A stretch of DNA of 64,000 nucleotides from Minisyncoccota bacterium (GTDB lineage: Bacteria; Patescibacteriota; Minisyncoccia; Phycocordibacterales; SBAW01), in the NCBI GenBank assembly GCA_018060985.1, contig JAGOUZ010000003.1:47356-111355 (forward strand), read 5' to 3'. The translations under genes and the position numbers were made by a program. Below the pieces are notes generated by a model, which saw only the letters and a program-made list of their open reading frames with translations, made no database searches and was not told the DNA's origin. This document shows positions 193 through 43,908 of this stretch, piece by piece; within the stretch, counting starts at the first letter, position 1; each line of letters starts with the position of its first letter.

Positions 193-1041
193 ATGAAATC
201 ATATAAGCCATACACAAAGTCCCGCCGCCACATGACCACGGTCACGTTCCGCGGCAAACTCACCACCAATGAGCCCCACAAGGCTCTTACTCACGGCGGT
301 AAGCGTGACGTGGGTCGCAACTCCTTTGGTCGCATTACGATGCGCCACAAGGGTGGTGGTCACAAGCGCCTTTTCCGCGATGTGGACTTTGGCTATGCAA
401 AACATGTCCCAGCTGTTGTTGAGACGGTTGAGTACGATCCAGCACGCTCGGGCTTTATCGGAGTCCTTAAATACATGGACGGCGAGCGCCGCTACGCACT
501 GTTGCCGCAGTCGGTAACTGCTGGCACCAAAATCTTGACCGACGAAAACGCTCCAGCAACTCCGGGAAACCGTTTGCCTCTTAAGGCTATGCCGGTTGGC
601 GCCTTTGTATACAACGTAGAAATTAAGCCAGGGCAGGGCGGCAAACTTGGCCGCGCCGCTGGTACGCATATTGAGGTTATTGCCCGTGACGGCGGTTATG
701 TAGACCTTAAGATGCCGTCGAGCGAAGTGCGCAAAGTGCTTGAAACCTGCTGGGCAACAATCGGCGAGGTATCAAACCCAGAAAACAAACTCATGAATAT
801 CGGTAAGGCAGGCCGCTCACGCTGGCTTGGTATCCGCCCGACCGTTCGCGGTACTGCTATGAACCCGGTAGACCACCCACACGGCGGCGGTGAAGGCCGT
901 CAGGGTCGTGGTTTGCGCCGCGCCAAGTCTAAGTGGGGCAAGCCAACAGGCAAGGGCCAGAAGACACGCACTCCTAAAAAGTATTCAAACTATCTCATTG
1001 TGTCTCGCCGCAAAGTCGGCAAGCGCAACGCAACGCAGTAA
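193..1041 (+). CDS. rplB: 50S ribosomal protein L2
   Basis: 282-aa ORF with L2 hallmarks (GGGHKRLFR...NPVDHPHGGGEGR); canonical position after rplW. Confidence 0.95.
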   Translation: MKSYKPYTKSRRHMTTVTFRGKLTTNEPHKALTHGGKRDVGRNSFGRITMRHKGGGHKRLFRDVDFGYAKHVPAVVETVEYDPARSGFIGVLKYMDGERRYALLPQSVTAGTKILTDENAPATPGNRLPLKAMPVGAFVYNVEIKPGQGGKLGRAAGTHIEVIARDGGYVDLKMPSSEVRKVLETCWATIGEVSNPENKLMNIGKAGRSRWLGIRPTVRGTAMNPVDHPHGGGEGRQGRGLRRAKSKWGKPTGKGQKTRTPKKYSNYLIVSRRKVGKRNATQ

Positions 1042-1053
1042 TAAAAAAGAAAA

Positions 1054-1085
1054 CGCCTCGGGGAAACCCCGGGGCGTTATTTGTA
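1054..1085 (+). terminator. intrinsic terminator after rplB
   Basis: GC hairpin CGCCTCGGGG-AAA-CCCCGGGGCG followed by a TTATTTG T-run. Confidence 0.6.
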
Positions 1086-1162
1086 GTTGACTCCCTCTCT
1101 TGTTTCAACGCATACTGCCCGCCAGACCAGTCTGCCAATATGGCTTCAAAGGAGGAACTAGC

Positions 1163-2083
1163 ATGCTCGAGAATCTGCAGCTGATTCACCGGGGCAAGAC
1201 CCGCGACACCTACCGGGCTAAGTGGTCTAGCCCGAACGACACCCGTCGGCCGCCGCGCCTCATCGTCGCGAGCGACCGCATCTCGACCCACAATATCGTG
1301 CACCAAAGCACGATCCCCAAGAAGGGCGAGGTCTTGACCGCACTGACCGTGCGGTGGATTGAGGATCTTCGTGGTGAGGATATCGACACTCACCTCATTG
1401 CCTTCGGCAAAAATATCTACGATTACCTGCCAGGGAAGGAGGGCGACTACCCGAAGAATTTTCATCACCGGGCAATCGTGGTGAAGGATCTCGACATGAT
1501 CCCGGTCGAATTTATCTACCGGGCGTACCTGTGCGGAAGCCTGTGGGACAAGTATTACAGCAAGGGGCTCGAGAATCCTTACGGGATTAAGTTGGGCCCC
1601 GATCTGCCGCTTATGTATCGGTTTACCCGACCGATCTTCACGCCGACGGAAAAGTCGGACACCGACGAACCCCTGAATCACCTGAAGACACATGAGGAGT
1701 ACAGGGCGGTATCGGAGATCGGGCGGTCTGTTCTCACGTTTGTTCAGAGAGTACTGAGGCGTACTGGTGTTGAAATGATAGACACCAAGCTCGAGTTTGG
1801 TGTCGACGAGCATGGCGCGCTCGTTCTCGCCGACGAAGTGTTGACCCCCGACAGCAGTCGGTTTGTCCGGCGTAAGGATATTAGGGAGGGGGAGAACCCG
1901 CCCTGGCTCGATAAGCAGGTTGCGCGGGACTGGGCGGAGAAGAAGTGGGCAGGCGGACTCAAAGAGCCACTCATCTTTCCACCCATGACCATCAACCAGC
2001 TCAAGGAGACCTATGTTGATCTCTTTGAGATGGTGAGTCGCATGTCGCTCTCGCAGTTCCAGCGCGAAGTGCTTGACCAGTAG
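1163..2083 (+). CDS. purC: phosphoribosylaminoimidazole-succinocarboxamide (SAICAR) synthase
   Basis: PurC motifs GKTRDTY, SDRISTHN, VEFIYRAYLCGS, DTKLEFG, LTPDSSRF; AAGGAGG RBS before ATG at 1163 (ORF track begins at in-frame ATG 1100); flanked by terminators. Confidence 0.85.
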   Translation: MLENLQLIHRGKTRDTYRAKWSSPNDTRRPPRLIVASDRISTHNIVHQSTIPKKGEVLTALTVRWIEDLRGEDIDTHLIAFGKNIYDYLPGKEGDYPKNFHHRAIVVKDLDMIPVEFIYRAYLCGSLWDKYYSKGLENPYGIKLGPDLPLMYRFTRPIFTPTEKSDTDEPLNHLKTHEEYRAVSEIGRSVLTFVQRVLRRTGVEMIDTKLEFGVDEHGALVLADEVLTPDSSRFVRRKDIREGENPPWLDKQVARDWAEKKWAGGLKEPLIFPPMTINQLKETYVDLFEMVSRMSLSQFQREVLDQ

Positions 2084-2100
2084 TTCCGTTTCCATCTGTG

Positions 2101-2134
2101 CCCCGGCCGACTTTTGGCCGGGGCTTCTTTTTTG
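2101..2134 (+). terminator. intrinsic terminator after purC
   Basis: CCCCGGCCGACTTTTGGCCGGGG hairpin followed by CTTCTTTTTTGG. Confidence 0.65.
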
Positions 2135-2143
2135 GCTTATATT

Positions 2144-2171
2144 TGACCTTTCTACCCCTATCCTGTAGATT
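2144..2171 (+). promoter_or_regulatory. candidate sigma70-type promoter restarting the r-protein operon before rpsS
   Basis: TTGACC (2144-2149), 16-nt spacer, TAGATT (2166-2171); directly downstream of the purC terminator. Confidence 0.4.
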
Positions 2172-2240
2172 GTGGTCATCCCGTGCTGCAAGGACTAGGC
2201 GCTCGCTGCCTACGTCGAGCATGGGCCTTTAATTTGACTT

Positions 2241-2618
2241 ATGTCGCGATCACTTAAAAAGGGACCCTATGTAGACGCAAAGCTCCTCAAGAAAATTGAG
2301 GGTAAAAAGCCTGTAGAAACAGGGGTTATTAATACGTGGGCACGCCGCTCACAGATCGCCCCAGAAATGGTTGGTTTTAAGTTTGGGGTACATAATGGCA
2401 AGACGCATATTGAAGTTTTGGTAAGCGAAGACATGGTAGGTCACCGTTTGGGTGAATTTTCTCCTACGAAGAAATTCGTTCGTCACGGCGGTAAGATGCA
2501 GAAGGAAATGGAGGCAAAGGCTAAAGAGGCCGAGATTGCAGCAGCACAGGCCGCTAAGGCAGCTACCGATGCTTCCGCAGGGAAGGGGGCTGCAGCCGGC
2601 GCTGCCGCGAAGAAATAA
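2241..2618 (+). CDS. rpsS: 30S ribosomal protein S19 with ~35-aa Ala/Lys-rich C-terminal extension
   Basis: S19 core ([13 protein letters not shown]...FVRHGGK) followed by a low-complexity [32 protein letters not shown] tail. Confidence 0.95.
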
Positions 2619-5724: not shown

Positions 5725-5740
5725 TCAGACGGGATACAAG

Positions 5741-5776
5741 AAAGGCCTTGCGGTTCATTCCGCAAGGCCTTTTTTC
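5741..5776. terminator. bidirectional hairpin/terminator after rplE
   Basis: AAAGGCCTTGCGG-ttcattc-CCGCAAGGCCTTTTTT; the stop codon of the antisense ORF lies in its loop. Confidence 0.6.
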
Positions 5777-6036
5777 ATCAGTCGCTCAGCTTCTGCTCGA
5801 TCCACTTCGTATCCCGAGAAACACTCGACAGGGCCATAGTCGAGGAGGCAGACACAGGTATCTTTATCACCGCAGTACTCCTCGTCGAAGGCCCAGGCGA
5901 TATAACGCCCGTCACTGGTGAGCATTAGGTGGTCTCCTTGGTGGTGCTCGGGCAGCAAGCAGGGAGGGAAGTCGTCCCCCTCACGCATGTACATTACTTC
6001 GAAGAAGGGTATGAGAATTCCGCAGGTTTCTCGCAT
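5755..6036 (-). CDS. hypothetical small Cys/His-containing protein encoded antisense inside the r-protein cluster
   Basis: 93-aa ORF MRETCGILIPFFEVMYMREGDDFPPCLLPEHHQGDH...CGDKDTCVCLLDYGPVECFSGYE with GGGAG SD-like element 7 nt upstream; G/C-ending codon usage unlike flanking r-protein genes; occupies the atypical 515-bp rplE-rpsN gap (ORF track extends it to 6270). Confidence 0.35.
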   Translation of the reverse strand: MRETCGILIPFFEVMYMREGDDFPPCLLPEHHQGDHLMLTSDGRYIAWAFDEEYCGDKDTCVCLLDYGPVECFSGYEVDRAEAERLMKKGLAE

Positions 6037-6239
6037 GCAGTATCTCCCTAGATAGAGCAAAACTGAGACCACTATAGCAAATAGACCCCTATTTGACTTA
6101 TAGAGCCCTATCGCGTATATTCGTGTCAGCCCATTCAGGGCTCCTTTTTTCTGATAGGTGCCGCTTAGTCGAAAGGCGAGGCAAACCGGCAGAATCATAA
6201 CCTCTAAAGGACGAAAGTAAGGGGGTAAACCATCCACGT

Positions 6240-7706: not shown

Positions 7707-8330
7707 ATGGTAGATACTAACGAAAAAGAGGTAGAAGCAGTTAAGGCCGCCGGAGAGGCGGAGGCAGTTGCAGTACCTGCAGAGGCCGTAGCGGCTGCGC
7801 CTGGAGCAGCTCCTGCTGCACCTGATCAGCGTGGTCGCCGTGGCCGTGGAGATCGCCGTGGAAGCCGTGGCAATGCGCCTCGCGCCCGTCAGGAGCGCAA
7901 GAGCGAGTACGATCAGAAGATGATCAATATCCGCCGCGTAGCCCGCGTGGTTTCAGGTGGTCGCCGCTTCTCATTTAGCGTTTCTATCATCATTGGTAAC
8001 AAGAAGGGCAAAGTTGGCGTAGGCGTTGGCAAGGCAGGGGACACCACTCTCGCTATCGACAAGGCAGTACGCAATGCAAAAAAGCACCTTATTACCGTAC
8101 CTCTTACGAAAGACAACTCAATTGCTCACGATGTTAAGGCAAAGTACTCAGCTTCAATCGTAAGCATGATGCCAGCCCATGGCCGCGGTTTGGTGGCAGG
8201 TTCGTCAGTACGCCCGGTTCTCGAGCTTGCTGGTGTGACCAACATTATTGCCAAGGTACACTCGGGCAGCAAAAATGGTCTTAACAATGCTCGCGCAGCT
8301 ATCGAAGCGCTTAAGTCGCTTAAAGCGTAA
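7707..8330 (+). CDS. rpsE: 30S ribosomal protein S5 with ~45-aa Ala/Arg-rich N-terminal extension
   Basis: S5 core preceded by low-complexity AVAVPAEAVAAAPGAAPAAPDQRGRRGRGDRRGSRG. Confidence 0.95.
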   Translation: MVDTNEKEVEAVKAAGEAEAVAVPAEAVAAAPGAAPAAPDQRGRRGRGDRRGSRGNAPRARQERKSEYDQKMINIRRVARVVSGGRRFSFSVSIIIGNKKGKVGVGVGKAGDTTLAIDKAVRNAKKHLITVPLTKDNSIAHDVKAKYSASIVSMMPAHGRGLVAGSSVRPVLELAGVTNIIAKVHSGSKNGLNNARAAIEALKSLKA

Positions 8331-17512: not shown

Positions 17513-17890
17513 TGGTGGAAGTGGGCGGAGTTGAACCGCCGTGCAACACAAAAACTCAAAACATATCTACGAGAGGTAGACTACTTTAATTTCTTAGGCT
17601 CAATTGTAGAAAGTAGACAAAATAGGATTGAGTCGCAGCCTCTTAGTCTCAACTACAGAGCAAGACAGACTCTGTAGTCATAGCCCGTTATATAACACCC
17701 GCACCCAGAGCCGGGCTCGCTGGGGCAGACGTGACCTTAGGCGCGCGCAGTGGCGAACGAAAGATCATTCACCGAGAAATACGGTGACGTAACTGATTTT
17801 GCAGTTATGGTTTGAAGTTTTTTATAGCAGATCTCCACTGCTCTCCCGCATGTAATGCGAATATATGTATTGTCTAAGCCTGTCACTCCC
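17513..17890 (-). ncRNA. ssrA: tmRNA (SsrA), 378 nt
   Basis: Minus strand: 5' GGGAGUG pairs with 3' CACUUCC-A-CCA including G3:U70; T-arm GGCGG-UUCAACU-CCGCC (same loop as E. coli tmRNA); encoded CCA; intrinsic terminator immediately downstream; internal ORF GCA...UAA (plus coords 17802-17737) gives tag AKSVTSPYFSVNDLSFATARA; same strand as and downstream of smpB. Confidence 0.75.
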
Positions 17891-21264: not shown

Positions 21265-22383
21265 TCATTGCTCGACGAGCATCCACTGGAATTTGAAGCG
21301 CTTCCCTTCGTTCTCGTCGAACCCGAACGGGGTGAGTTGTTGGCCGGCGAACTCGTACCGTCCATTGATGGTCCACTCCTGGCGGGTCAGCGTGAACGGT
21401 TCCGCGGATACAGGCACGCGTGCGCCGTGGAACCTTTGCGCGTTGCCGTACAAAAACGCTTGCGCGTAGTCGAGGAGTCCAAGCTGGTCGAGCGACTGCA
21501 CGTAGAGCTCGAGCGCACAGTGGTAGGTGTAGTAGCCGCCGAACGCCCGCGCCGCATACTTGTTGGTTGTGGGATGCGCGGCCATATCGCTGCCGGCGAC
21601 CACATAGCTCGGACGCTCTTGCAAGAGCCTCTGCAGAGCAAAGAGATGCCGCTTCGCTTTGACGACCGGCAGACAGTGGTGGTCGGGCAGTAGGAATCCG
21701 CCGTCGTAGAGAATCCTCCGGTCGAAGGCGAGGTGGTGCGCCGTTACCTCGAAGATCCGTTTCTCGGGATCTCCGTTGCCAACAGCATAGTCCACGGCCT
21801 CCTCTGTCGAGATGTGCGCGAGGATTTGCTTCAGGTTGGGGTAGAGGTCGGGGATGTGCGGCTGGATATAGCTGTAGTAGATGCGCTCGCGATCGTATGC
21901 GTCCACATCGTCGGCCTTCCAGTGCGCCACTTCGCCATGATTCTTGAGCGGGATTCCGGCTTCGGCCATCATGGAAAGAAGCTTGCCGGTCGAACTATTC
22001 TTGTCGAGCAGGTCTTCCGGCTGGACGCTCTCTTCCGAGTGGGTACTGCCGTGTGGCGGGTACCACTTTACGTGTAGGATGAGTCCTTTCTCCCACGCCC
22101 GCAGTACTTCCTTTGGTTCGGTGGTGGGGGTGAGGTATATGCTCGCGAACCAGTGCCGGTGCGGAGCGATCTCCCGTGCCTCATCGACTTCGCGCTTGGC
22201 GTCGTCGCAGGTCAGAATGTGCGGGTTGGTGTTCGGTTCGAGCACACCGCCGTTCATCCGTTCCGCGGCTTGGCCGAGCAGGAATTTCTTGAGGGGATGA
22301 CGCCGTCCGTGCAGGTGATTGTCGAAGTGGTTCACGCGTACCGTATTCACCAAACCGTTTTCCGTCACAGTGTCGATAGACAT
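21265..22383 (-). CDS. pyrC: dihydroorotase (class II, E. coli PyrC-like)
   Basis: N-terminal metal motif FDNHLHGRR and carboxylated-Lys region HVKWYPPHGSTHSEE resemble homodimeric PyrC. Confidence 0.8.
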   Translation of the reverse strand: MSIDTVTENGLVNTVRVNHFDNHLHGRRHPLKKFLLGQAAERMNGGVLEPNTNPHILTCDDAKREVDEAREIAPHRHWFASIYLTPTTEPKEVLRAWEKGLILHVKWYPPHGSTHSEESVQPEDLLDKNSSTGKLLSMMAEAGIPLKNHGEVAHWKADDVDAYDRERIYYSYIQPHIPDLYPNLKQILAHISTEEAVDYAVGNGDPEKRIFEVTAHHLAFDRRILYDGGFLLPDHHCLPVVKAKRHLFALQRLLQERPSYVVAGSDMAAHPTTNKYAARAFGGYYTYHCALELYVQSLDQLGLLDYAQAFLYGNAQRFHGARVPVSAEPFTLTRQEWTINGRYEFAGQQLTPFGFDENEGKRFKFQWMLVEQ

Positions 22384-22489
22384 ACTGCACCCTTTCTCTG
22401 TTGCAGAACCAAGTTCCGTTCATCACCCTAGCAAAAGAAAAGGCCCGGCGCTATTGAGGCGCCGGGCCGGAACAAGTGGGGAGGAGTAG

Positions 22490-23401
22490 TTACGCCTCCA
22501 CCGGCTCTTTGTAGAAGTTGAGCATGTAGTCCATACCGATGTCGTTGAGGCCGCGCAGGTCCTCGTTCTGGAAGAAAGACGCTCCGATCTGCGCTCCGTT
22601 GACGCCGGCGTGTTCGACGTAATCGTTGATGTCCATGCCGCAGTCGATGCCACCGACACCGAAGATCGGAAAGTCAGGAAGAAGTTCCCGGTACCTGCGG
22701 CAGTTCGAGAGCGAAATTGGCTTGAGAGCCTTGCCACTCATTCCGCCGTAGTTGTTGGCAACGTCGAGGTACGGCCGCCCGTCGGGGTGATAGAGCGAGA
22801 TCGCAGGGAAGGTGTTGGTTGCGACAAGTGCATTGCAGCCGACGCCCTGGACCATCTCTGCGATCCACTCGAGATCGAGCGGGTTTGCCATGGGCGAGAC
22901 CTTGAGCCACCACGGGGTCCTCTTTCCGCTCTCGGCTAGTGCCATCGTAACTCCGCCAATGATGTCCAACAGTGCGTCTGGGTCGTACGAAGCGATCGGC
23001 CCCCGTTTTCCATCTTTGAATTTATTGGGACAGCTTCCATTGACCTCGATCACGTCGGCGTCGATGCCGAGCGCAACGATAGACATGAAGTAGTAGTCGT
23101 CGGGGGTGTCGCCAGCGATGTTAATGACCGCCTTCTTGCCGGCCTCCTGGATGGTGTGGACCATCTTCGCGCCTTGTTTCGCCAGGTAGTCGGCGCCGCC
23201 GTTCTTGAGCTGGATCGAGTTCGTGGCGGTGCCGTCTGCTCCCACATGGAAGTTCGTCCCACCCGAGCTACCGGGCTTTGCTTCCGGCGTAAATGAGCCC
23301 AGGACCACGTGGGTCAGGAGCGGCACGGTCGAGAGCAGATGCGCCTGTTCGACCGTCTTGGCCCAACCGGCAGCGTTCATAAAGGCGATTGGCATTTGCA
23401 T
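22490..23401 (-). CDS. pyrD: dihydroorotate dehydrogenase, class 1
   Basis: Class-1 DHODH active-site region NGSCPN, FMN-binding TIM barrel pattern. Confidence 0.85.
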   Translation of the reverse strand: MQMPIAFMNAAGWAKTVEQAHLLSTVPLLTHVVLGSFTPEAKPGSSGGTNFHVGADGTATNSIQLKNGGADYLAKQGAKMVHTIQEAGKKAVINIAGDTPDDYYFMSIVALGIDADVIEVNGSCPNKFKDGKRGPIASYDPDALLDIIGGVTMALAESGKRTPWWLKVSPMANPLDLEWIAEMVQGVGCNALVATNTFPAISLYHPDGRPYLDVANNYGGMSGKALKPISLSNCRRYRELLPDFPIFGVGGIDCGMDINDYVEHAGVNGAQIGASFFQNEDLRGLNDIGMDYMLNFYKEPVEA

Positions 23402-23502
23402 TGCGCAGTCCTCCGTTGTGAAAATGTACCCGCTTGCACAATACCCGAGATAGGGGAAAAGAAAAAGGCCGCGGTTCCAGTATGGAACAGCGGCCGAGGC
23501 GT

Positions 23503-24522
23503 TTAACGGAGCGGGGGATTGTCGTGACAGATCTTCGCCAGAAGTGCTCGGCGGATGATCCGGCCGAAGCGCATCTGCTCGACATACAGCTGCTGGGGCA
23601 TGTGGTCTATCTCACGCGCCAATTCCTCGTTGCGGGGGAGTGGGTGCATGATCCGCGCACCCGGCTTCATGCGCGCGGCCATCTTGCGGTCGATGATGAA
23701 GGGTGGGTTGCTGTCGTGTTCGCTTGCGTTCGCGGCACGCTCTTTCTGCGCCCGAGTTTGGTAGAAGATGTCGACCTGGTCGATCACCCACTCGAGATCG
23801 CTGGTCTCGATAACCCGGATATTCATCGACTCCTTATGACGCTCAAGGTAATAGCGAAGTTCGCCTTTGATGCGCAGTCCATCCCGCGATACCAGATAGA
23901 AGGTGATGTCACGAAACTTGGTGAGCGAATAGATGAACGAGTTCGAAGCACGTGCATTCTTGAGGTCTCCCCCAAACCCGATGTTCAGACCGTCGAGCGA
24001 ATTCCTGACTGAGAAGGCGGTGCGCAGATCGAGCAACCCCTGCGTTGGATGCTGTTCGCCGCCAGAACCTGCATTGATAACGGGCACTTTGGATACCAGT
24101 GCGGCTCGGTAGATCGCGTCCTCATCTGGATGACGAAGCGCGATGATGTCCTCGGCGCCGATGGTAGAGAGGGTGAGGATCGTGTCCTCGAGCGACTCTC
24201 CCTTCTTACCCTCAGAAGATTCGCCGATACTCCTCGCGATGTAGTTGCCGCCTAGGTCTTGTGCCGCCTTGATAAATGACACTGCGGTGCGCGAGCTGGC
24301 CTCGTCGCCGTACCAGTGCAGAGTGCGGCCGCGCATAAGAGTCCGCACCTCTTCGGTGTCTTTTCTTCTTTCGAGTAGGTCGCCCAGCATAAAGAGCTCG
24401 CTGATAAGTGCGCGGTCAAAGTCTTGCGAACGCAAGATGTGACGCAGTTGGCGTGGAGACCCTTCGAGTAGTTCTCTGATCGAGGGTTCACGTTTTTTCG
24501 AACGAGTAGTAGCTTTTGCCAC
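23503..24522 (-). CDS. pyrB: aspartate carbamoyltransferase catalytic subunit
   Basis: SSRTAVSF (STRTR-like), HPTQGLLD and HPLPRNEE motifs. Confidence 0.85.
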   Translation of the reverse strand: MAKATTRSKKREPSIRELLEGSPRQLRHILRSQDFDRALISELFMLGDLLERRKDTEEVRTLMRGRTLHWYGDEASSRTAVSFIKAAQDLGGNYIARSIGESSEGKKGESLEDTILTLSTIGAEDIIALRHPDEDAIYRAALVSKVPVINAGSGGEQHPTQGLLDLRTAFSVRNSLDGLNIGFGGDLKNARASNSFIYSLTKFRDITFYLVSRDGLRIKGELRYYLERHKESMNIRVIETSDLEWVIDQVDIFYQTRAQKERAANASEHDSNPPFIIDRKMAARMKPGARIMHPLPRNEELAREIDHMPQQLYVEQMRFGRIIRRALLAKICHDNPPLR

Positions 24523-24609: not shown

Positions 24610-24682
24610 GGGCGTGTAGCTCAGCTGGTAGAGCAGTCGACTTATACTCGACCGGTCGCAGGTTCGAACCCTGCCGCGCCCA
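24610..24682 (+). tRNA. tRNA-Ile, anticodon UAU
   Basis: Cloverleaf GGGCGUG/CGCGCCC acceptor (one G-U), anticodon loop CUUAUAC, T-loop UUCGAAC; no CCA encoded. Confidence 0.8.
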
Positions 24683-24727
24683 CAAAAGACAGAAAGACCT
24701 GCCCTGCGGCAGGTTTTCTGCTTTTGT
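24683..24727 (+). terminator. hairpin/terminator after tRNA-Ile
   Basis: CACAAAAGACAGAAAGACCUGCC-cugc-GGCAGGUUUUCUGCUUUUGUG long imperfect hairpin with U-run. Confidence 0.5.
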
Positions 24728-34008: not shown

Positions 34009-35097
34009 ATGGCGTTTTCGCTCTCATCACTGTTTTCTAAATCTTCGAAGAGCGTGCTTGGTGTTGATATTGGCACATCTTCTATTAAAGTGGTGCAGCT
34101 GCGCCGCGAAAAGGGGAGAGTAATCCTTGAGACCTATGGCGCAATTGCGCTCGGGCCGTACGCCGGGGTGGAGATAGGTCGCGCCACCTCGCTCCCGGCA
34201 GAAAAGATCGCCGAGGCTCTGAAGGATGTTATCCGCGAGGCAAATGTCACTACTTCAGATGTTGCCATATCCATCCCGTATTCATCGAGCCTCATATCAC
34301 TCGTTAAACTCCCCAAAGCGGTAGAAAAACAACTGGCGCAGGTGGTGCCTATCGAGGCGCGCAAATACATCCCGGTTCCTATCAACGAGGTGATGCTCGA
34401 TTGGTTTGTGGTCTCTGGTGGCAGCCATGCCCCCGGCGATGCCGACAAGATAGAAGTGCTCCTCGTTGCTATCCACAACGACACCATCTCGAAATTTAAA
34501 AATATTGGCACGAGCGCTACGGTTAACACCGCCTTTTTTGAGATAGAGGTCTTTAGCGCCGTGCGCGCCGCGCTTGAGCATGGGCTCGCGCCGGTTGCGG
34601 TGGTAGACATGGGCGCCGCGACAACCAAGTTTTATGTCGTTGAGCGTGGGCTTATACGCGAGAGTCATATTATTAACCGTGGCGCTCAAGACTTAACTCT
34701 TGCCGCAGCGCGCGGCCTCAACATAACCATTGCACAGGCAGAGGAGCGCAAGCGTAAGGTGGGCATTATGGCCAACCCGCCTGCGGACCTTGCTCCTGCG
34801 GTGCAATCATTTGAACTTACACTCGCACCTTTAGTGTCGGAGATATCGCGCACCATTGCCAACTACGAGCAACGCGCCAACCAAACGCTTTCGGCACTGG
34901 TGCTCACGGGAGGAGGAGCAACACTGCGCGGGTTTATGGAATACGCTCAGCCTAAGATTCAGACCGAGATCCGGCTCGCAGACCCGTTTGGCAAAACTCA
35001 AGCACCAGCTTTTTTGGAGAAGATCCTCAAGGAAGCGGGGCCGGAGTTTTCAGTTGCGGTAGGGTTGGCTCTTAGGCGTCTCCAAGAGGTTGGGTAA
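34009..35097 (+). CDS. pilM: type IV pilus assembly protein PilM (actin-like ATPase)
   Basis: N-terminal VLGVDIGTSSIKVVQL... actin-fold motif. Confidence 0.85.
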   Translation: MAFSLSSLFSKSSKSVLGVDIGTSSIKVVQLRREKGRVILETYGAIALGPYAGVEIGRATSLPAEKIAEALKDVIREANVTTSDVAISIPYSSSLISLVKLPKAVEKQLAQVVPIEARKYIPVPINEVMLDWFVVSGGSHAPGDADKIEVLLVAIHNDTISKFKNIGTSATVNTAFFEIEVFSAVRAALEHGLAPVAVVDMGAATTKFYVVERGLIRESHIINRGAQDLTLAAARGLNITIAQAEERKRKVGIMANPPADLAPAVQSFELTLAPLVSEISRTIANYEQRANQTLSALVLTGGGATLRGFMEYAQPKIQTEIRLADPFGKTQAPAFLEKILKEAGPEFSVAVGLALRRLQEVG

Positions 35098-35148
35098 TGT
35101 GTTGATACACGACTAGTTGCATATTTTATCGAGCTATACTGTACGTAA

Positions 35149-35826
35149 ATGGATCCCCAGGTCTCAAATTCGTTCATTCCAAAGAAGCCGCTTACCGGAG
35201 AGCGTACACGCGGTAATGCATTTGGTTTTATCGTCCTTATTGCGGTGTTGGTGTTTATTGCATCAGGCGCAGCAGCGGGCGGTGTATTTGTGTATGGCCG
35301 CGTTCTCCAGAGTTCGCTTGAGTCAAAGAAGTCTTCGCTCAATAAATCGCAAGAAGCGTATGACCCGGGTGTTATCGAAGACCTCGTTCGTCTGGACACT
35401 CGTATGATCCAAGGCCGCTCTCTGCTCGAAAAGCACATCTCTCCCTCATCGATCTTTACCTTCCTGTCAGAGAACACGCTTGAGGACGTGCAATTTACGG
35501 AATTTGAGTACTCAATTACTGATGGCGGCGCTGCGGCTATAACCATGAAGGGCGACGCAAAAGACTTTTCGACTGTTGCACTCCAGTCGGACCGCTTTGG
35601 CTCGAGCAAGATGCTTCGCGAGATTGTATTTTCTGACATCGCTATCGGTGCAGAAGGGGGAGTGAGCTTTTCGGTAAGCGCAACCATCGATCTCCCGAAC
35701 CTGCTCTACAGCAAGCATCTAAACCAGACAGTCTTTGTACCGCCTGCTGCGGATAGCGTTGCCCCTGCCTCTGTCCCTGCCGTTACCGCTACTTCGACCT
35801 CGTCGACCACAAAACCAAGCATATGA
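35149..35826 (+). CDS. PilN-like bitopic membrane protein
   Basis: N-terminal TM then periplasmic domain; position after pilM. Confidence 0.6.
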   Translation: MDPQVSNSFIPKKPLTGERTRGNAFGFIVLIAVLVFIASGAAAGGVFVYGRVLQSSLESKKSSLNKSQEAYDPGVIEDLVRLDTRMIQGRSLLEKHISPSSIFTFLSENTLEDVQFTEFEYSITDGGAAAITMKGDAKDFSTVALQSDRFGSSKMLREIVFSDIAIGAEGGVSFSVSATIDLPNLLYSKHLNQTVFVPPAADSVAPASVPAVTATSTSSTTKPSI

Positions 35827-36374
35827 TGCGATTTATTACACCTCTTGTACTGGTAGGCCTGGGCGTAGCGCTCTTCATGCTCTATACCGACCCTGCGTAT
35901 CAGGACACTAAAGAAGTTAAGGTGCAGGTGGACTCATACGACAATGCTCTTACCAAATCTCAGGAGCTTAAAAAGGTGCGCGATCAACTGCTCTCGAGGC
36001 GCAATGCGCTCCGGGTGGAAGATCTCCAGAAGCTCGAGAAGGTGCTTCCTGACAACGTCGACAACATCCGCCTTATTATCGACATCGACAACATTACGAC
36101 CCGTCGAGGCCTAGCGCTTAAGGATGTACAGCTTGGCGAAATATCCGACTCGACTACTGCGCGCGACCCGCTTGCAGTTGGCGACTCCGGCAACCCTGTA
36201 GGCTCTGTTACGCTTAACTTTACCGTCTCTGCAGGATACGAAGACTTCTTAACGCTCCTTGCCGACTTGGAGCATAGTTTGCGTGTGGTTGATATCGAGA
36301 GAATCGCTTTTACAGCGGGGGATACGGGACAAGACGAATATGAAGTTACCATCCGCACCTACTGGCTCCGTTAA
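35823..36374 (+). CDS. PilO-like membrane protein
   Basis: TM plus coiled-coil then beta domain; overlapping start with the preceding gene. Confidence 0.6.
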   Translation: MMRFITPLVLVGLGVALFMLYTDPAYQDTKEVKVQVDSYDNALTKSQELKKVRDQLLSRRNALRVEDLQKLEKVLPDNVDNIRLIIDIDNITTRRGLALKDVQLGEISDSTTARDPLAVGDSGNPVGSVTLNFTVSAGYEDFLTLLADLEHSLRVVDIERIAFTAGDTGQDEYEVTIRTYWLR

Positions 36375-36384
36375 TATTTGATAT

Positions 36385-36681
36385 ATGCAAGCCTTTAAAG
36401 ACAAAAAAACATTGATATACGGGCTCATACTCACCGTATTGCTTATTGTTGCGTACTTTGTGATGTTTGCTGACAAAGGGGAGGGGCCTGCACTTACCGC
36501 AGTTTCAGAAGACCCAACGTCTGCCGTCTCACGCGACCTCCTTAAAACCCTTTCGAGCCTGAATGTTATTAAACTCGATGAGACTCTGTTTGCTGACCCG
36601 GTGTTCACGTCACTTTCTGACTTCGGCGTTATTATTCCAGCGCAGCCTATCGGCCGCCGCAACCCGTTCGCTCCTATTTAA
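36385..36681 (+). CDS. small pilus-assembly-associated membrane protein (PilP-like?)
   Basis: 98 aa, single TM, GRRNPF C-terminal motif. Confidence 0.4.
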   Translation: MQAFKDKKTLIYGLILTVLLIVAYFVMFADKGEGPALTAVSEDPTSAVSRDLLKTLSSLNVIKLDETLFADPVFTSLSDFGVIIPAQPIGRRNPFAPI

Positions 36682-36689
36682 CCTGGCCT

Positions 36690-38555
36690 ATGGATCTACT
36701 GCAGCTTTTAAGCGACAAAGGAGTCGTCGATCGTGCCCGCCTTGCTGAACTTCAGGAGGAAATTGCAAAGCCAGGGAACTCAGCAGAAGCCGTACTCCAG
36801 AAATCAGGCGTTACGCTTAAAGATATTCTGGCAGTCAAAGGCGAGCACTACGGACTCCCCACACGCGAACTTGGCGACCACAGCGTACCCTTCGATATTT
36901 TGCGCTTTGTGCCGGAAGAATCGGCACGTTACTACCGCTTTGCACCTCTTGCCGTCCAAGATGGCGTACTAGAGATTGGCGTTACCGACCCAGACAACAT
37001 GGAGGCGCGGGATGCGCTTACCTTTATTTCTGCAAAGGTGGGCATGCCTTACAAAGTATTTTTGGTTACTGATACTGATTTTGAAAAACTGCTCACGTTG
37101 TATAAAGGTCTGTCTGGAGAAGTGGGGAAGGCGCTCGGGGAGCTCGAGACCGAGCTTACGCTCGAGGCACTCGAAGTTGATAAAAAGGGAAATAAGAAAT
37201 CGCTCGCGCTTGAGGACGATCTTATTACGGAAACCGAGACCGATGCCATTACCGAAGATGCCCCGGTTACAAAGATTGTAGCCACCATGCTACGCCATGC
37301 GGTAGAACAGCGTGCGTCCGACATCCACGTTGAACCGCTGGTCGACCAGACGCGTGTGCGCTTTCGCGTGGACGGTGTGCTTATCACCAACATTACGCTT
37401 CCGCCTAAAATTCACTCCTCGGTCGTGGCGCGCATCAAGGTGCTCTCTAACATGAAGCTCGACGAAAAAAGAAAGCCGCAGGACGGCCGCTTTTCCGCGC
37501 GTGTCTCCGGCAACAAAGTCGACTTCCGTGTCTCGACCTTCCCAACCTACTACGGCGAGAAGGTGGTGATGCGTATTTTGGGCGCCTCGGCCAAGGTGCT
37601 TAAGCTTGATGACTTTGGGCTCTCAAAGCGCAACTTAGAGTTAATCCGCACCGCGATTAAAAAGCCCTACGGCCTCGTGCTTATCTCCGGCCCTACGGGC
37701 TCCGGTAAATCTACTTCGCTGTACGCTATTTTGAACGAAGTCGACCGCGAAAAACAAAACGTACTTTCGCTTGAAGACCCGGTCGAATATACCATCCCGG
37801 GCGTGGCGCAAAGCCAGGTGCGGCCTGAAATCGGTTACACCTTTGCCAATGGACTACGCACCACACTCCGTCAGGACCCGAATGTGATAATGGTCGGCGA
37901 AATCCGCGACAGCGAGACCGCCAACTTGGCGGTGCAAGCCGCATTGACCGGCCACTTGGTGCTGTCGACCATCCACACCAACAACGCTATAGGCATTGTG
38001 CCGCGCCTCCTCGACATGGGTGTGGAGCCGTACCTTATTCCCCCCGTACTTATTTTGGGCATCGCACAGCGCCTGGTTAAGACCCTATGTCCCGGGGGAG
38101 GGAAGAAGATGAAGGTAGAGGGCAGTGTTGAAGCGATGCTTAAAGAACAATTTGCTGACCTTCCGGCGGAGTATCAAAAAGATATTCCATCGCTCGCAGA
38201 AATGTCCCTCATTGACCAAACTGCTGACTGCCCTTCGGGCACAAGGGGTCGTATTGCGGCGTTTGAAATGTTTGACATGAACATAGAGCTTGAGAAAGCG
38301 ATTTTGGCCAATAAGTCAGAAGATGACTTATACAAAATTGTACGCAAGAGCGGCATGCTCACGATGAAAGAGGATGCTATCATAAAATCAGCGCAGGGTA
38401 CGGTGCCGTTTGAGGAAGTAAACACCCTGGGCGGTGAGTTTGAACTCGACGAACCTGCTGAGGTGGTTCCTCCTGCACCTGTGGCTATGAGTGAAGACGC
38501 TACAGAAGTACCCACCACTCCTCCTAAAAAGAACCCGTTCAAAAAAGAAGCATAA
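36690..38555 (+). CDS. pilB: type IV pilus assembly ATPase PilB (GspE family)
   Basis: Walker A GPTGSGKST, GspE N-domain, C-terminal zinc/acidic tail. Confidence 0.95.
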   Translation: MDLLQLLSDKGVVDRARLAELQEEIAKPGNSAEAVLQKSGVTLKDILAVKGEHYGLPTRELGDHSVPFDILRFVPEESARYYRFAPLAVQDGVLEIGVTDPDNMEARDALTFISAKVGMPYKVFLVTDTDFEKLLTLYKGLSGEVGKALGELETELTLEALEVDKKGNKKSLALEDDLITETETDAITEDAPVTKIVATMLRHAVEQRASDIHVEPLVDQTRVRFRVDGVLITNITLPPKIHSSVVARIKVLSNMKLDEKRKPQDGRFSARVSGNKVDFRVSTFPTYYGEKVVMRILGASAKVLKLDDFGLSKRNLELIRTAIKKPYGLVLISGPTGSGKSTSLYAILNEVDREKQNVLSLEDPVEYTIPGVAQSQVRPEIGYTFANGLRTTLRQDPNVIMVGEIRDSETANLAVQAALTGHLVLSTIHTNNAIGIVPRLLDMGVEPYLIPPVLILGIAQRLVKTLCPGGGKKMKVEGSVEAMLKEQFADLPAEYQKDIPSLAEMSLIDQTADCPSGTRGRIAAFEMFDMNIELEKAILANKSEDDLYKIVRKSGMLTMKEDAIIKSAQGTVPFEEVNTLGGEFELDEPAEVVPPAPVAMSEDATEVPTTPPKKNPFKKEA

Positions 38556-38558
38556 CCT

Positions 38559-39620
38559 ATGGACTATAAACAAAAACTCTCAGAACTTATCGAGGCTCTT
38601 ATTGCCCAAGGTGCTTCAGACCTTCACCTTAGCGTTGGCAGTCAGCCCGTTATCCGTGTCTCGGGCGCACTAACGCCGCTTTTGCAGGAGAAAGTGCTCA
38701 CGCAGGCGGACATGGACGGATTTTTTGCTGAACTCTTGTCTCCGGAGCGTGCCAAAGATTTTAAGGACACACAGGAGGTCGACTTTTCGTACTCCTACCA
38801 AGACAAAGTGCGCTTTAGAGGAAACGGCTACTGGCAGCGCAGCACCTCGGCAGTGGCACTCCGTTTGATCCCCAAAGTAATTCGCTCTATTGGAGAGCTT
38901 AATTTGCCCCCGGCGCTTGAAAGCTTTGCACTACGTGAACAGGGATTCTTTTTGGTGGTGGGTCCGGTGGGACAGGGAAAGACCACCACCCTTGCGGCGC
39001 TTATCGAAAAGATTAACCAAGAGCGCACCGAGCACATAGTGACGATCGAAGACCCAATTGAGTATTTGTTTGAAAATAAAAAATCGCTGATTGACCAACG
39101 AGAAGTTAAGGTGGACACCGTCGACTTCCATATAGCGCTTCAGTCGGTATTCCGCCAAGACGCAGACGTGCTTATGGTGGGGGAAATGCGTACTCCGGAA
39201 ACTATGTCTACTGCCGTTACTGCGGCGGAGACGGGCCACCTCGTGTTTTCTACACTCCACACTAACAATGCGGCCCAAACTATCGACCGTATTATCGACT
39301 CGTTCCCGGCAAACCAGCAGGATCAGATCCGCGTCCAGCTCGCTGGCTCGCTCGCAGGTGTGTTTTCCCAGCGTCTTGTGCCCCGCATCTCTGGCGGGTT
39401 GGTGCCAGCGTATGAGCTCATGGTGTCTACACCGGCTATCGCAAACCTGATCCGTGAAAAACGTACGCACGAAATACAAACCGTTATTGAAACTGGCTCA
39501 GAAGAGGGAATGATAGACATGAACCGTTCGCTCGCTGAACTGGTGCGTGGCGGAGAAATTTCCGTAGAGAGTGCCTATTCCCGCACCTGGAATCCGCGCA
39601 CGCTTGAACGCTTGCTCTAA
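38559..39620 (+). CDS. pilT: twitching-motility retraction ATPase PilT
   Basis: Walker A GPVGQGKTTT, 353 aa. Confidence 0.9.
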   Translation: MDYKQKLSELIEALIAQGASDLHLSVGSQPVIRVSGALTPLLQEKVLTQADMDGFFAELLSPERAKDFKDTQEVDFSYSYQDKVRFRGNGYWQRSTSAVALRLIPKVIRSIGELNLPPALESFALREQGFFLVVGPVGQGKTTTLAALIEKINQERTEHIVTIEDPIEYLFENKKSLIDQREVKVDTVDFHIALQSVFRQDADVLMVGEMRTPETMSTAVTAAETGHLVFSTLHTNNAAQTIDRIIDSFPANQQDQIRVQLAGSLAGVFSQRLVPRISGGLVPAYELMVSTPAIANLIREKRTHEIQTVIETGSEEGMIDMNRSLAELVRGGEISVESAYSRTWNPRTLERLL

Positions 39621-39626
39621 TAATCT

Positions 39627-40844: not shown

Positions 40845-40954
40845 AGCAGGGGGCTATCCACAGGGCTTCCATTGTGGAAGATATAAACCGGCTATACTTT
40901 AGGCATCCGCAATTAGCGTTAAATTTATTAATTAGTAACAATTCGGATACGAAT

Positions 40955-41413: not shown

Positions 41414-41435
41414 GTTCTCGCATAGTTTAAATCGA

Positions 41436-41462: not shown

Positions 41463-41489
41463 TATGTAGCGTATATACTTATTATATAT

Positions 41490-43903: not shown

Positions 43904-43908
43904 ACGAT

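What the first reader, a model, noticed from the sequence alone, without database searches (positions are those of the whole stretch)
1043..2135. purC cassette with its own terminators inserted between rplB and rpsS
- In almost all bacteria rplB is directly followed by rpsS.
- Here a 307-aa SAICAR synthase gene sits between them. It is preceded by the rplB terminator and followed by its own terminator.
- A separate TTGACC/TAGATT promoter then restarts rpsS transcription.
- Its codon usage (for example CGG/CGC Arg, CTC, GAC, ACC) looks G/C3-richer than the surrounding r-protein genes.
- A purine-biosynthesis gene is also unexpected in a CPR-like genome that otherwise appears streamlined.
- Together these suggest horizontal insertion of an autonomous cassette into the S10 operon.
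Basis: partly seen in the sequence, partly recalled or inferred. Interest (0 to 1): 0.55.

Follow-up and report, generated by a model that had tools for sequence, protein, structure and literature searches.

The report
Old purC insert splitting ribosomal operon
A purine-synthesis gene (purC) does sit, with its own promoter and terminators, between two ribosomal protein genes that are normally adjacent, but it is an old inherited feature of a whole group of tiny 'candidate phyla' bacteria and the leftover of a two-gene purE-purC insert, not a recent foreign import.

Summary
A 306-aa SAICAR synthetase gene (1163-2083) lies between rplB and rpsS. A strong hairpin follows rplB, and a hairpin plus T-run follows purC. 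Promoter-like sites precede purC and rpsS. GC3 is 0.73 against a window mean of 0.55.

The reading as a recent horizontal cassette is only partly supported.
- Every PurC at least 54% identical to this one, in eight or more independent lineages, sits in the same rplB|rpsS gap.
- The two deepest or most distant lineages carry purE-purC there, so the ancestral cargo was a two-gene module and purE was later lost.
- The r-protein tree is well supported, and PurC groupings broadly agree with it.
- Synonymous sites are saturated, and dN/dS is about 0.18.
- The CGG/CTG/GC3-rich codon dialect is shared by the orthologues and by pyrB, pyrC and pyrD in this window.
- No mobile-element features were found.
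- The nearest PurC relatives are all Patescibacteria.
- The rpsS promoter and a covarying leader hairpin persist in two relatives where unrelated genes replace purC, so they belong to a native operon break.

What an apparently orphan PurC does could not be resolved. The finding is ordinary to moderately interesting.

The parts
193..1041 (+). rplB (ribosomal protein L2), the last gene of the upstream S10-operon segment
   Evidence: Pfam Ribosomal_L2_N and Ribosomal_L2_C. It is 80-96% identical to L2 in the related loci.
1052..1088 (+). Terminator-like hairpin after rplB: a 12-bp G+C-rich stem with a weak T tail
   Evidence: -23.3 kcal/mol, z -4.7. A hairpin occupies the same place in L002, L006, L008, L009, L037, L099 and L101, with different sequences. 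It is absent from the Kaiserbacteria outgroup spacer.
1087..1116 (+). purC promoter-like site, TTGACT-N18-CATACT
   Evidence: It aligns with TTGACTC...(C/T)ATA(C/G)T upstream of purC or purE in L006, L048 and L009; L002, L005 and L037 keep a TATAGT -10 but a weaker TTTGC -35, and L008 has no recognisable promoter.
1117..1162 (+). purC 5' leader. It carries a conserved motif (CCAGACCAGTCTGCC, 1122-1136) and a Shine-Dalgarno AAGGAGG at 1149-1155.
   Evidence: The leader aligns across seven lineages, whether the next gene is purC or purE. It is predicted unstructured (z +1.4). The motif has no other copy in the window, and Rfam gives no match. Its function is unknown.
1163..2083 (+). purC, SAICAR synthetase (306 aa)
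   Evidence: Pfam PF01259 at E 2.5e-49. AF2 pLDDT is 93.9 and the best PDB match is yeast SAICAR synthase 2CNQ, TM 0.84/0.86. dN/dS against the L002 orthologue is 0.18. It is identical to NCBI MBP9710986.1.
2100..2133 (+). Intrinsic terminator of purC: an 11-bp stem followed by TTCTTTTTT
   Evidence: -23.7 kcal/mol, z -4.3. A hairpin plus T-run is conserved after purC in all eight purC-bearing lineages examined.
2143..2171 (+). rpsS promoter-like site, TTGACC-N17-TAGATT
   Evidence: It is conserved in all clade members, including L099 and L101, which lack purC.
2180..2225 (+). Structured hairpin in the rpsS 5' leader
   Evidence: It has 17 pairs, all cells paired. Six pairs carry compensatory changes, and slid controls give none. 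Covariance model R1 finds it only upstream of rpsS, in the window, L002, L099, L005, L006 and L048. Rfam gives no match.
2241..2618 (+). rpsS (ribosomal protein S19), the first gene of the downstream segment
   Evidence: Pfam Ribosomal_S19.

Best explanation
WHAT IT IS
The region is a monocistronic purC unit sitting in a conserved break of the S10 ribosomal-protein operon.

PREDICTED LAYOUT (from sequence only, not shown experimentally)
- A hairpin ends, or attenuates, transcription after rplB.
- A sigma-70-like promoter drives purC, followed by a roughly 46-nt unstructured leader and a strong Shine-Dalgarno site.
- A strong intrinsic terminator closes the purC unit.
- A separate promoter with a structured leader restarts transcription at rpsS.

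THE PROTEIN
- It is a SAICAR synthetase of the long, yeast/actinobacterial type.
- That type ligates L-aspartate to CAIR using ATP.

HISTORY
- A purE-purC pair was placed between rplB and rpsS in the ancestor of an Adlerbacteria-related clade of Parcubacteria.
- A small divergently oriented ORF upstream of the pair probably came with it.
- The pair came from within Patescibacteria, possibly by relocation inside the genome.
- It has been inherited vertically since.
- purE was lost at least three times, including in this lineage.
- purC itself was replaced by unrelated genes in two lineages.
- In the window's lineage purC is still under purifying selection.

COMPOSITION
- The GC3-rich codon usage is a long-lived property of these weakly expressed nucleotide-biosynthesis genes. 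It is not a mark of recent transfer.

INFERRED, NOT SHOWN
- The metabolic role is a step in a partial or salvage-fed purine route.
- CAIR would come from a purE elsewhere in the genome or from the host.
For: IDENTITY OF THE GENE
- Pfam, fold prediction and PDB matches all give SAICAR synthetase.
- 65 positions are invariant across 14 homologues, including the GK.RD, DR.S, E.I.R...GS, D.K.E.G and DE..T.DSSR blocks shared with yeast Ade1.

CONSERVED POSITION
- purC lies between rplB and rpsS in the window, L002/L047, L005, L006/L011, L048/L049, L030+L041, L037, L008 and L009.
- Every PurC at 51% identity or less whose flanks are long enough to show its neighbours lies elsewhere.

ANCESTRAL CARGO
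- L008 and L009 carry purE upstream of purC (AIRC E 1e-44 to 1e-52; TIGR01162).
- The same promoter and leader precede purE in L009 and purC in the other lineages.

SPECIES TREE
- The tree uses 7 r-proteins and 1196 columns, and all bootstraps are at least 95.
- The Kaiserbacteria outgroup has no insert.
- L008 (purE-purC) is basal.
- L009 (purE-purC) is nested among purC-only lineages.
- L099 and L101, which lack purC, are nested as well.

NATIVE rpsS PROMOTER AND LEADER
- L099 keeps 88% identity over the 101 nt upstream of rpsS, although it carries an unrelated 189-aa gene on the opposite strand.

SELECTION AND COMPOSITION
- dN/dS is 0.11-0.20, with dS 0.9 to above 2.
- The codon dialect is shared by the orthologues and by pyrB, pyrC and pyrD.

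SOURCE
- All of the closest named relatives, down to about 45% identity, are Patescibacteria MAGs.
- PurE is the only recurrent neighbour of this PurC type in 45 other loci.
- A related 710-kb contig has purE-purC between infC and smpB, in a region syntenic with the window.

NO MOBILITY FEATURES
- No flanking repeats were found, and the ORF listing shows nothing beside the insert.
Against: - Monophyly of all S10-located PurC proteins is not resolved by PurC alone. NJ bootstrap is 53/200, and L008 is as similar to outsiders (57%) as to clade members (55%). The purC-only subclade gets 151/200. Two independent insertions at the same site are therefore not formally excluded.
- PurC scores below every NCBIfam equivalog cut-off (189.9 against 251), so the substrate assignment rests on homology.
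- No purE and no other pur gene is found in the 64-kb window.
- A close relative (the L099 contig, 722 kb) appears to lack this PurC type altogether. No hit lies on that contig.
- One relative (L037) has a frameshift near the 3' end of purC. Ongoing decay is therefore plausible.
- No transcript data exist for the promoters or the terminators.
- The cause of the shared GC3-rich dialect is unexplained.
Confidence: 0.7

Rival explanations
1. Recent horizontal acquisition. A self-contained purC cassette from a G+C-richer donor was inserted into this genome's S10 operon and has not yet ameliorated.
For: - GC3 is 0.73 against 0.55 (z 2.6).
- The codon dialect is distinct.
- purC has its own promoter-like site and terminator.
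- purC is absent from the same gap in two related lineages.
Against: - The same gene sits at the same site in eight or more lineages, down to 79% r-protein identity.
- PurC groupings match the r-protein groupings.
- dS is saturated, yet the orthologues share the dialect.
- pyrB, pyrC and pyrD share the dialect too.
- All of the closest relatives, down to about 45% identity, are Patescibacteria.
- No repeats or mobility genes are present.
Confidence: 0.05
2. Decaying relic. purC here no longer has a function. It is the last remnant of an eroding purE-purC module and will be lost, as it was in L099 and L101.
For: - purE has been lost.
- purC has been replaced in L099 and L101, and it is frameshifted in L037.
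- No other pur gene is present in the 64-kb window.
- The N-terminus is about 10 aa shorter than in the orthologues.
Against: - The ORF is intact and has a strong Shine-Dalgarno site.
- dN/dS against L002 is 0.18 over dS 0.9.
- All conserved blocks are retained.
- The predicted fold is confident.
- The promoter, leader and terminator are conserved.
Confidence: 0.12
3. Neofunctionalised PurC-like ligase. This Patescibacteria subfamily uses the SAICAR-synthetase fold for a different ATP-dependent ligation.
For: - It scores below all NCBIfam equivalog cut-offs.
- The clade shares an insertion near residues 21-31 (W-PDPNDKRRPP).
- The gene is usually alone or paired only with purE, never in a pur operon, in the 45 loci sampled.
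Against: - The recurrent pairing with a bona fide PurE, which makes its substrate, argues for the canonical reaction (TIGR01162 above cut-off in L009).
- All 38 significant fold matches are PurC or PAICS.
- The motif blocks are conserved with yeast Ade1.
Confidence: 0.1
4. Assembly or binning chimera that joins a purC fragment to r-protein genes.
For: None was found. MAG contigs can be chimeric in general.
Against: - An independent Logan assembly has the identical junction.
- JGI, ENA and NCBI assemblies of relatives show the same arrangement.
Confidence: 0.01

Closest known systems
SAICAR synthetase (PurC / yeast Ade1), long roughly 300-aa type (PDB 1A48, 1OBD, 2CNQ; Mycobacterium abscessus 3R9R, 6YVQ)
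   Same: - Pfam PF01259.
- 32-34% identity to yeast Ade1 and TM-score 0.84-0.86.
- Same length class, with the conserved motif blocks shared.
   Different: - It scores below the NCBIfam equivalog thresholds.
- It carries a Patescibacteria-specific N-terminal insertion.
- It is encoded alone inside an r-protein cluster rather than with pur genes.
purE-purC two-gene modules and the fused PAICS enzyme of animals
   Same: - Ancestrally, and still in L008 and L009, purC is immediately preceded by purE. They overlap or lie within 18 nt of each other, which couples consecutive steps.
- The same pairing recurs across Patescibacteria.
   Different: - The genes are separate, not fused.
- PurE has the SAHRTP motif. 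From memory, that marks the class I N5-CAIR mutase type rather than the class II AIR carboxylase of PAICS.
- In this window purE is gone.
Canonical bacterial S10 operon (rpsJ-rplC-rplD-rplW-rplB-rpsS-rplV-rpsC-rplP-rpmC-rpsQ)
   Same: The order and orientation of the r-protein genes seen in the window (rplB onward; rpsJ-rplW lie upstream of it) are canonical.
   Different: - The operon is broken at rplB|rpsS by a terminator, a cargo gene and a new promoter with a structured leader.
- A second break at rplE|rpsN also carries variable cargo.
Genomic islands and integration hot spots with variable cargo
   Same: One chromosomal junction holds different genes in related genomes: purE-purC, purC alone, a 189-aa ORF, or a Dabb-like ORF.
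   Different: No integrase, no flanking repeats and no adjacent tRNA are present. Turnover is slow enough for purC to track the species tree.
Autoregulatory r-protein mRNA leaders (for example the E. coli S10 leader bound by L4)
   Same: A conserved, covarying hairpin lies in the 5' UTR directly upstream of an r-protein gene block. In some relatives it is a short hairpin followed by a U-run, which looks like an attenuator.
   Different: It matches no Rfam family, its ligand is unknown, and it sits at rpsS rather than rpsJ.

Membership tests
SAICAR synthetase (PurC, PF01259) | Sequence match to the family model above the curated threshold | tested here: met
   Pfam SAICAR_synt scores 168.6 bits against a cut-off of 20, covering profile positions 2-225 of 233.
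SAICAR synthetase (PurC, PF01259) | Match to an NCBIfam equivalog model above its cut-off, which is what allows automatic functional naming | tested here: not met
   PRK13961 scores 189.9 against 251. TIGR00081 scores 137.4 against 189.9. The protein belongs to a divergent subfamily.
SAICAR synthetase (PurC, PF01259) | Three-dimensional fold of solved SAICAR synthetases | tested here: met
   The AF2 model has pLDDT 93.9 and pTM 0.91. Foldseek against the PDB gives 2CNQ at E 7e-27 and TM 0.84/0.86, and all 38 hits with E <= 0.001 are PurC or PAICS.
SAICAR synthetase (PurC, PF01259) | Conserved nucleotide-, Mg- and CAIR-binding motif blocks | tested here: met
   G11-K12-x-R14-D15, R39-x-S41, E116-x-I118-x-R120...G125-S126, D207-x-K209-x-E211-x-G213 and D224-E225...D230-S231-S232-R233 are invariant or nearly so in 14 homologues and align with yeast Ade1. 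Assigning roles to individual residues rests on memory of the E. coli and yeast structures. It was not tested here.
SAICAR synthetase (PurC, PF01259) | Catalysis of CAIR + Asp + ATP -> SAICAR | not testable with these tools
   This needs an enzyme assay or genetic complementation.
SAICAR synthetase (PurC, PF01259) | Genomic association with other purine-biosynthesis genes | tested here: inconclusive
   purE is adjacent in L008, L009 and 8 other Patescibacteria loci. No purE or other pur gene was found in this 64-kb window. The rest of the genome could not be read.
Recently transferred genomic island or mobile cassette | Atypical base composition or codon usage | tested here: met
   GC3 z is 2.6, and the gene is enriched in CGG and CTG. 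The orthologues and pyrB, pyrC and pyrD share the signal, however.
Recently transferred genomic island or mobile cassette | Absence from close relatives at the same site | tested here: not met
   purC is present at the same site in eight or more lineages. Where it is absent (L099, L101) it has been replaced, and those lineages are nested inside the purC-bearing clade.
Recently transferred genomic island or mobile cassette | Mobility genes, flanking direct or inverted repeats, or an adjacent tRNA | tested here: not met
   The ORF listing shows nothing beside the insert between rplB and rpsS, no flanking repeats beyond chance were found, and no tRNA lies within 20 kb.
Recently transferred genomic island or mobile cassette | Gene tree incongruent with the species tree, or nearest relatives in another phylum | tested here: not met
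   PurC groupings (window+L002, then L005; L006+L048) match the r-protein tree. All of the closest named relatives, down to about 45% identity, are Patescibacteria MAGs. The deep nodes of the PurC tree are unresolved.
Canonical S10 operon as one transcription unit | rplB immediately followed by rpsS | tested here: not met
   The gap here is 1199 nt and contains purC. The Kaiserbacteria outgroup has a 69-nt spacer.
Canonical S10 operon as one transcription unit | No internal terminators or promoters | tested here: inconclusive
   Two strong hairpins and two conserved promoter-like sites are predicted. No transcript data are available.
r-protein autoregulatory leader RNA (for the rpsS 5' UTR hairpin) | Conserved secondary structure supported by covariation, placed upstream of an r-protein gene | tested here: met
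   All 17 pairs are paired in all 6 sequences. Six pairs carry compensatory changes and the slid controls give none. The sample amounts to only about three independent lineages.
r-protein autoregulatory leader RNA (for the rpsS 5' UTR hairpin) | Membership of a described RNA family, or binding by an r-protein | tested here: not met
   No Rfam match appears even at E <= 10. Protein binding cannot be tested here.

The most novel reading that the evidence does not exclude
In an Adlerbacteria-related clade of Parcubacteria, the r-protein supercluster is permanently broken at fixed junctions (rplB|rpsS and rplE|rpsN). Each break has a terminator on one side and a promoter on the other, with a structured leader at rpsS. 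These breaks act as cargo slots in which genes are swapped over evolutionary time. The orphan PurC in the rplB|rpsS slot is kept by selection even though the rest of de novo purine synthesis is absent. That would imply a non-canonical use, such as converting host-derived CAIR or AIR-type intermediates, or an activity tied to ribosome production.
Probability: 0.2. Interest if true: 0.55.

Novelty: new member of a known kind. Interest (0 to 1): 0.33.

Why it matters
For genome annotation and for detecting horizontal transfer, this is a cautionary case. A gene with its own promoter and terminators, an odd location and deviant GC3 looks like a fresh cassette, yet comparative data show an old, vertically inherited insert. 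Its codon dialect is a stable gene-class property.

For CPR biology it documents three things:
- A two-gene purE-purC module recurs across Patescibacteria and is being eroded lineage by lineage.
- The normally invariant rplB-rpsS junction can become a stable operon break that hosts changing cargo.
- A candidate structured leader lies upstream of rpsS.

None of this overturns current understanding. The unresolved question is what a lone SAICAR synthetase does in an organism that probably cannot make purines de novo. It can now be tested with a defined set of genomes.

Tried and rejected
- RIBOSWITCH OR KNOWN LEADER: an Rfam scan of 900-2400 at E <= 10 gave only weak terminator-like matches, with no purine, ZTP or PRPP riboswitch and no r-protein leader.
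- REGULON TEST: the conserved purC leader motif has no other copy in the window, including upstream of pyrB, pyrC and pyrD.
- MOBILE ELEMENT: no flanking repeats were found.
- purE IN THE WINDOW: tblastn with three Patescibacteria PurE proteins found nothing.
- purC REMNANT IN L099 AND L101: neither tblastn nor blastn found any trace in the gaps. Only the rpsS promoter and leader are homologous.
- PurC NJ TREE: the first bootstrap run timed out. The faster rerun left the base unresolved.
- CODON LOG-LIKELIHOOD TEST: a generic test against pooled genes did not flag purC (z -1.26). A targeted pyr-like versus rest test did.
- COVARIANCE MODEL: the rpsS leader model found no additional copies.
- LITERATURE: searches found no description of this arrangement or of purE-purC modules in CPR.
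- ANTISENSE ORF: the 398-aa ORF antisense to purC (995-2191, minus strand) is treated as spurious, because the plus-strand frame carries the Pfam match and the conservation.
- OTHER pur GENES IN THE MAG: this could not be determined.
Full report
1. WHAT IS IN THE SEQUENCE

rplB is 193-1041. It is followed by a 121-nt spacer, an ORF from ATG 1163 to the stop at 2083, a 157-nt spacer, and rpsS at 2241-2618. The rest of the S10/spc cluster follows in canonical order.
- The ORF has 306 aa and an AAGGAGG site 8-14 nt upstream of the start.
- It matches Pfam SAICAR_synt at E 2.5e-49.
- Its closest solved structure by sequence is yeast Ade1 (1A48/1OBD, E 4e-41).
- An AlphaFold2 model built from 14 homologues is confident (pLDDT 93.9). 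It superposes on yeast SAICAR synthase 2CNQ with TM 0.84/0.86. All 38 significant PDB matches are PurC or PAICS.
- The protein falls below every NCBIfam equivalog cut-off (best 189.9 bits against 251), so it belongs to a divergent subfamily.
- It is identical to NCBI MBP9710986.1, from a MAG labelled Candidatus Pacebacteria.
- An independent Logan assembly (SRR11088367) carries the identical rplB-purC-rpsS junction, so this is not a chimera.

2. SIGNALS AROUND THE GENE

- The hairpin after rplB (1052-1078) folds at -23.3 kcal/mol (z -4.7) but has a weak T tail.
- The hairpin after purC (2100-2124) folds at -23.7 kcal/mol (z -4.3) and is followed by TTCTTTTTT.
- Promoter-like sites lie at 1087-1116 (TTGACT-N18-CATACT) and 2143-2171 (TTGACC-N17-TAGATT).
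- The scan finds no more such sites than shuffled sequence does (8 against 7.8). On their own these matches are therefore worthless.
- Their value comes from conservation, described in section 6.

3. COMPOSITION

  - Synonymous GC3 is 0.727 against 0.549 +/- 0.067 for 58 other genes (z 2.6, third highest).
  - CGG makes up 44% of Arg codons, against 9% in other genes and 1% in r-protein genes.
  - CTG makes up 32% of Leu codons, against 14% and 3%.
- purC is not alone in this.
  - The only genes with higher GC3 are two of three adjacent minus-strand genes at 21265-24522.
  - These three are pyrB (ATCase), pyrD (DHODH) and pyrC (dihydroorotase, NCBIfam TIGR00856).
  - In a likelihood test of pyr-like against the rest, only pyrD, pyrC, purC and pyrB out of 59 genes score positive.
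- The window also carries gmk, adk, ndk and pyrG. The premise of a genome without nucleotide biosynthesis is therefore too strong.

4. THE DECISIVE COMPARISON: RELATIVES

- Homologues at 75%, 69%, 59%, 57%, 55%, 54% and about 50% identity all sit between rplB and rpsS. They come from JGI, ENA, NCBI and Logan assemblies.
- Every PurC at 51% identity or less whose flanks are long enough to show its neighbours lies elsewhere.
- Two lineages carry purE immediately upstream of purC in the gap. These are L008 (325-kb contig) and L009 (648-kb contig).
  - Their purE matches AIRC at E 1e-44 and 1e-52.
  - L009 scores above the TIGR01162 cut-off.
- A neighbour-joining tree of seven flanking r-proteins (1196 columns, every node at least 95% bootstrap) gives this branching order, from the root:
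  - Kaiserbacteria outgroup, with no insert and a 69-nt spacer;
  - L008, with purE-purC;
  - L006 and L048, with purC;
  - L037, with purC frameshifted near its 3' end;
  - L101, a named Adlerbacteria genome that has a Dabb-like ORF instead of purC, grouped with L009 (purE-purC);
  - L005, with purC;
  - L099, with an unrelated 189-aa minus-strand ORF and no purC;
  - the window and L002, with purC.
- The simplest history has four steps.
  - One insertion of purE-purC occurred in the clade ancestor.
  - purE was lost at least three times.
  - purC was replaced twice.
  - One purC copy may currently be decaying.
- No trace of purC remains in the L099 and L101 gaps.

5. IS PurC FOREIGN?

- The closest relatives among GTDB species representatives, down to about 45% identity, are all Patescibacteria MAGs. 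A few contigs labelled Bdellovibrionales follow at about 44%.
- In a PurC NJ tree the S10-located copies group together, nested inside this Patescibacteria radiation.
- Bootstrap support is moderate for the purC-only subclade (151/200). It is poor for the whole set (53/200), because L008 is as close to outsiders as to clade members.
- Within the clade the groupings match the r-protein tree: window+L002, then L005, with L006+L048 together.
- A related 710-kb contig has purE-purC between infC and smpB. That region is syntenic with window positions of about 11-24 kb, and there too FtsH is followed by a DHODH-family gene and pyrB, though its DHODH shows no tblastn similarity to the window's pyrD.
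- Across 45 other loci of this PurC type, PurE is the only recurrent neighbour (8 of 149 neighbouring ORFs). No other pur family recurs.
- The source was therefore a Patescibacteria purE-purC module, and it may have moved within the genome.

6. THE REGULATORY ELEMENTS

- The promoter and roughly 46-nt leader upstream of purC align across seven lineages. They are the same whether the next gene is purC or purE.
  - The leader contains a conserved motif (CCAGACCAGTCTGCC, 1122-1136).
  - It is predicted to be unstructured.
  - The motif has no second copy in the window.
- The purC terminator is a hairpin plus T-run in all eight purC-bearing lineages examined.
- The rpsS promoter and leader are conserved in every clade member, including L099 and L101, which lack purC.
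  - L099 is 88% identical to the window over the 101 nt before rpsS.
  - These elements therefore belong to a native operon break, not to a purC cassette.
- The leader forms a hairpin at window 2180-2225.
  - It has 17 pairs, and every cell is paired.
  - Six pairs show compensatory changes, and slid-register controls give none.
  - A covariance model finds it only at this position.
  - In L009, L101, L008 and the Kaiserbacteria spacer it is replaced by a short hairpin followed by a T-run.

7. SELECTION AND THE GC3 QUESTION

- purC is under purifying selection. dN/dS is 0.18 against L002 (dS 0.91) and 0.11-0.20 against more distant orthologues with saturated dS.
- Synonymous sites are saturated, yet orthologous purC genes in L002, L005, L006, L008 and L009 are all CGG-rich (25-43% of Arg, against 1-10% in their r-protein genes).
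- The dialect is therefore maintained over time. It is not a fading donor signature.
- The excess over other non-ribosomal genes, shared with pyrB, pyrC and pyrD, remains unexplained. Candidates are an expression class, recombination-associated GC-biased conversion, or a common older origin.
- PyrD has only seven detectable relatives in the large protein database. The best (73%) lies on the same 722-kb contig as L099, so pyrD is also inherited within this lineage.

8. HOW IT MOST LIKELY WORKS

- Shown here:
  - the gene's identity and fold;
  - the conserved position;
  - the ancestral pairing with purE;
  - vertical inheritance;
  - purifying selection;
  - conservation of hairpins and promoter-like sites.
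- Inferred:
  - three separate transcripts (rplB-terminated, purC alone, rpsS onward);
  - canonical SAICAR synthesis;
  - CAIR supplied by a purE elsewhere in the genome or by a host.
- Background from one preprint: about 93% of Patescibacteria genomes lack de novo nucleotide synthesis, and such genes are scattered in their distribution (bioRxiv 10.64898/2026.06.21.733656).
- Whether purB, purH or purE exist elsewhere in this genome could not be checked.

9. VERDICT

- The interpretation as a horizontally inserted autonomous cassette is partly supported. The gene is an insertion and it is autonomous. It is also ancient, clade-wide, originally purE-purC, derived from Patescibacteria, and placed in a native operon break.
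- No description of this arrangement was found in the searchable literature.
- Interest is modest. This is a tidy example of misleading HGT signatures and of erosion of a two-gene metabolic module. Two side leads are worth keeping: cargo turnover at fixed r-protein operon breaks, and a structured rpsS leader.

Noticed in passing
window 21265-24522 (minus strand), next to tRNA-Ile(TAT) at 24610-24683: A pyrB-pyrD-pyrC cluster for de novo pyrimidine synthesis. It has the highest GC3 in the window (0.67-0.76) and shares the CGG/CTG/CCC/ACC-rich codon dialect of purC. All three proteins are divergent and score below the NCBIfam cut-offs. PyrD has only 7 detectable relatives among 5.8 billion proteins; the best (73%) lies on the 722-kb contig of relative L099.
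   Followed up: partly
window 5725-6239; ORF 5758-6036 (minus strand); promoter-like site 6093-6121: A second break in the r-protein cluster lies between rplE and rpsN. It holds a 93-aa Cys-rich ORF on the opposite strand with no Pfam match. That ORF is 60% identical to an ORF at the same junction in L009. L002 and L005 carry an unrelated 97-98-aa ORF there, L006 carries other ORFs, and L037 and L099 carry none. The best promoter-like match in the first 12 kb (TTGACT-N17-TATATT) lies just upstream of rpsN.
   Followed up: partly
window 2172-2240 (hairpin 2180-2225): The rpsS 5' leader carries a conserved hairpin with compensatory base changes in 6 of its 17 pairs. It matches no Rfam family. 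In other relatives (L009, L101, L008, and the Kaiserbacteria spacer) a short hairpin plus U-run occupies the same place, which resembles an attenuator. It is a candidate new r-protein leader.
   Followed up: partly
L099 5888-6457 (minus strand); L101 3427-3771 (minus strand): In two relatives nested within the purC-bearing clade, the rplB|rpsS gap holds other genes on the opposite strand. L099 has a 189-aa protein with no family match. The Adlerbacteria genome RIFCSPHIGHO2_12_FULL_53_18 (L101) has a 114-aa Dabb-like protein. Cargo at this junction therefore turns over.
   Followed up: partly
L037 4001-4839 (JACOWS010000003.1): purC in this relative is split into two frames near its 3' end. There is a stop at 4780, and the conserved C-terminal peptide continues in another frame. 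This is either a sequencing error or early pseudogenisation.
   Followed up: no
L006 5644-5883 (minus strand) and L009 3951-4310 (minus strand): A small ORF transcribed divergently lies just upstream of the purC/purE promoter. The two copies share a conserved segment (MTPLQ.RMQSGG). It was probably part of the ancestral insert, and it is absent from the window. It has no family match.
   Followed up: partly
window 1117-1162 (motif 1122-1136): The purC leader contains a conserved, partly palindromic motif, CAGAC-CA-GTCTG. It is retained in seven lineages, upstream of either purC or purE, and it is unique in the window. It could be an operator or another sequence-specific signal.
   Followed up: partly
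window 995-2191 (minus strand): A 398-aa ORF runs antisense to the whole of purC. It is judged spurious, a by-product of the GC3-rich sense frame.
   Followed up: partly
window 2490-2618 and 7707-7900: S19 has an Ala/Lys-rich C-terminal extension of about 40 aa. S5 has an Ala-rich N-terminal extension of about 60 aa. Neither is covered by the Pfam domains I checked or know for these proteins.
   Followed up: no
L102 998-2052 and L006 1484-2286: Other relatives also have insertions between rpsJ and rplC. The Kaiserbacteria locus has a PaaX_M-domain gene plus a 111-aa ORF, and L006 has an 800-nt gap. Breaks in the S10 cluster therefore seem common in this part of the CPR.
   Followed up: no
window 17513-17890 (minus strand); 34009-45714: Ordinary features seen while annotating: a tmRNA gene, and a type IV pilus gene cluster (pilM-like, ATPases, a platform protein, several prepilins and a prepilin peptidase, judged from the ORF translations).
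   Followed up: no
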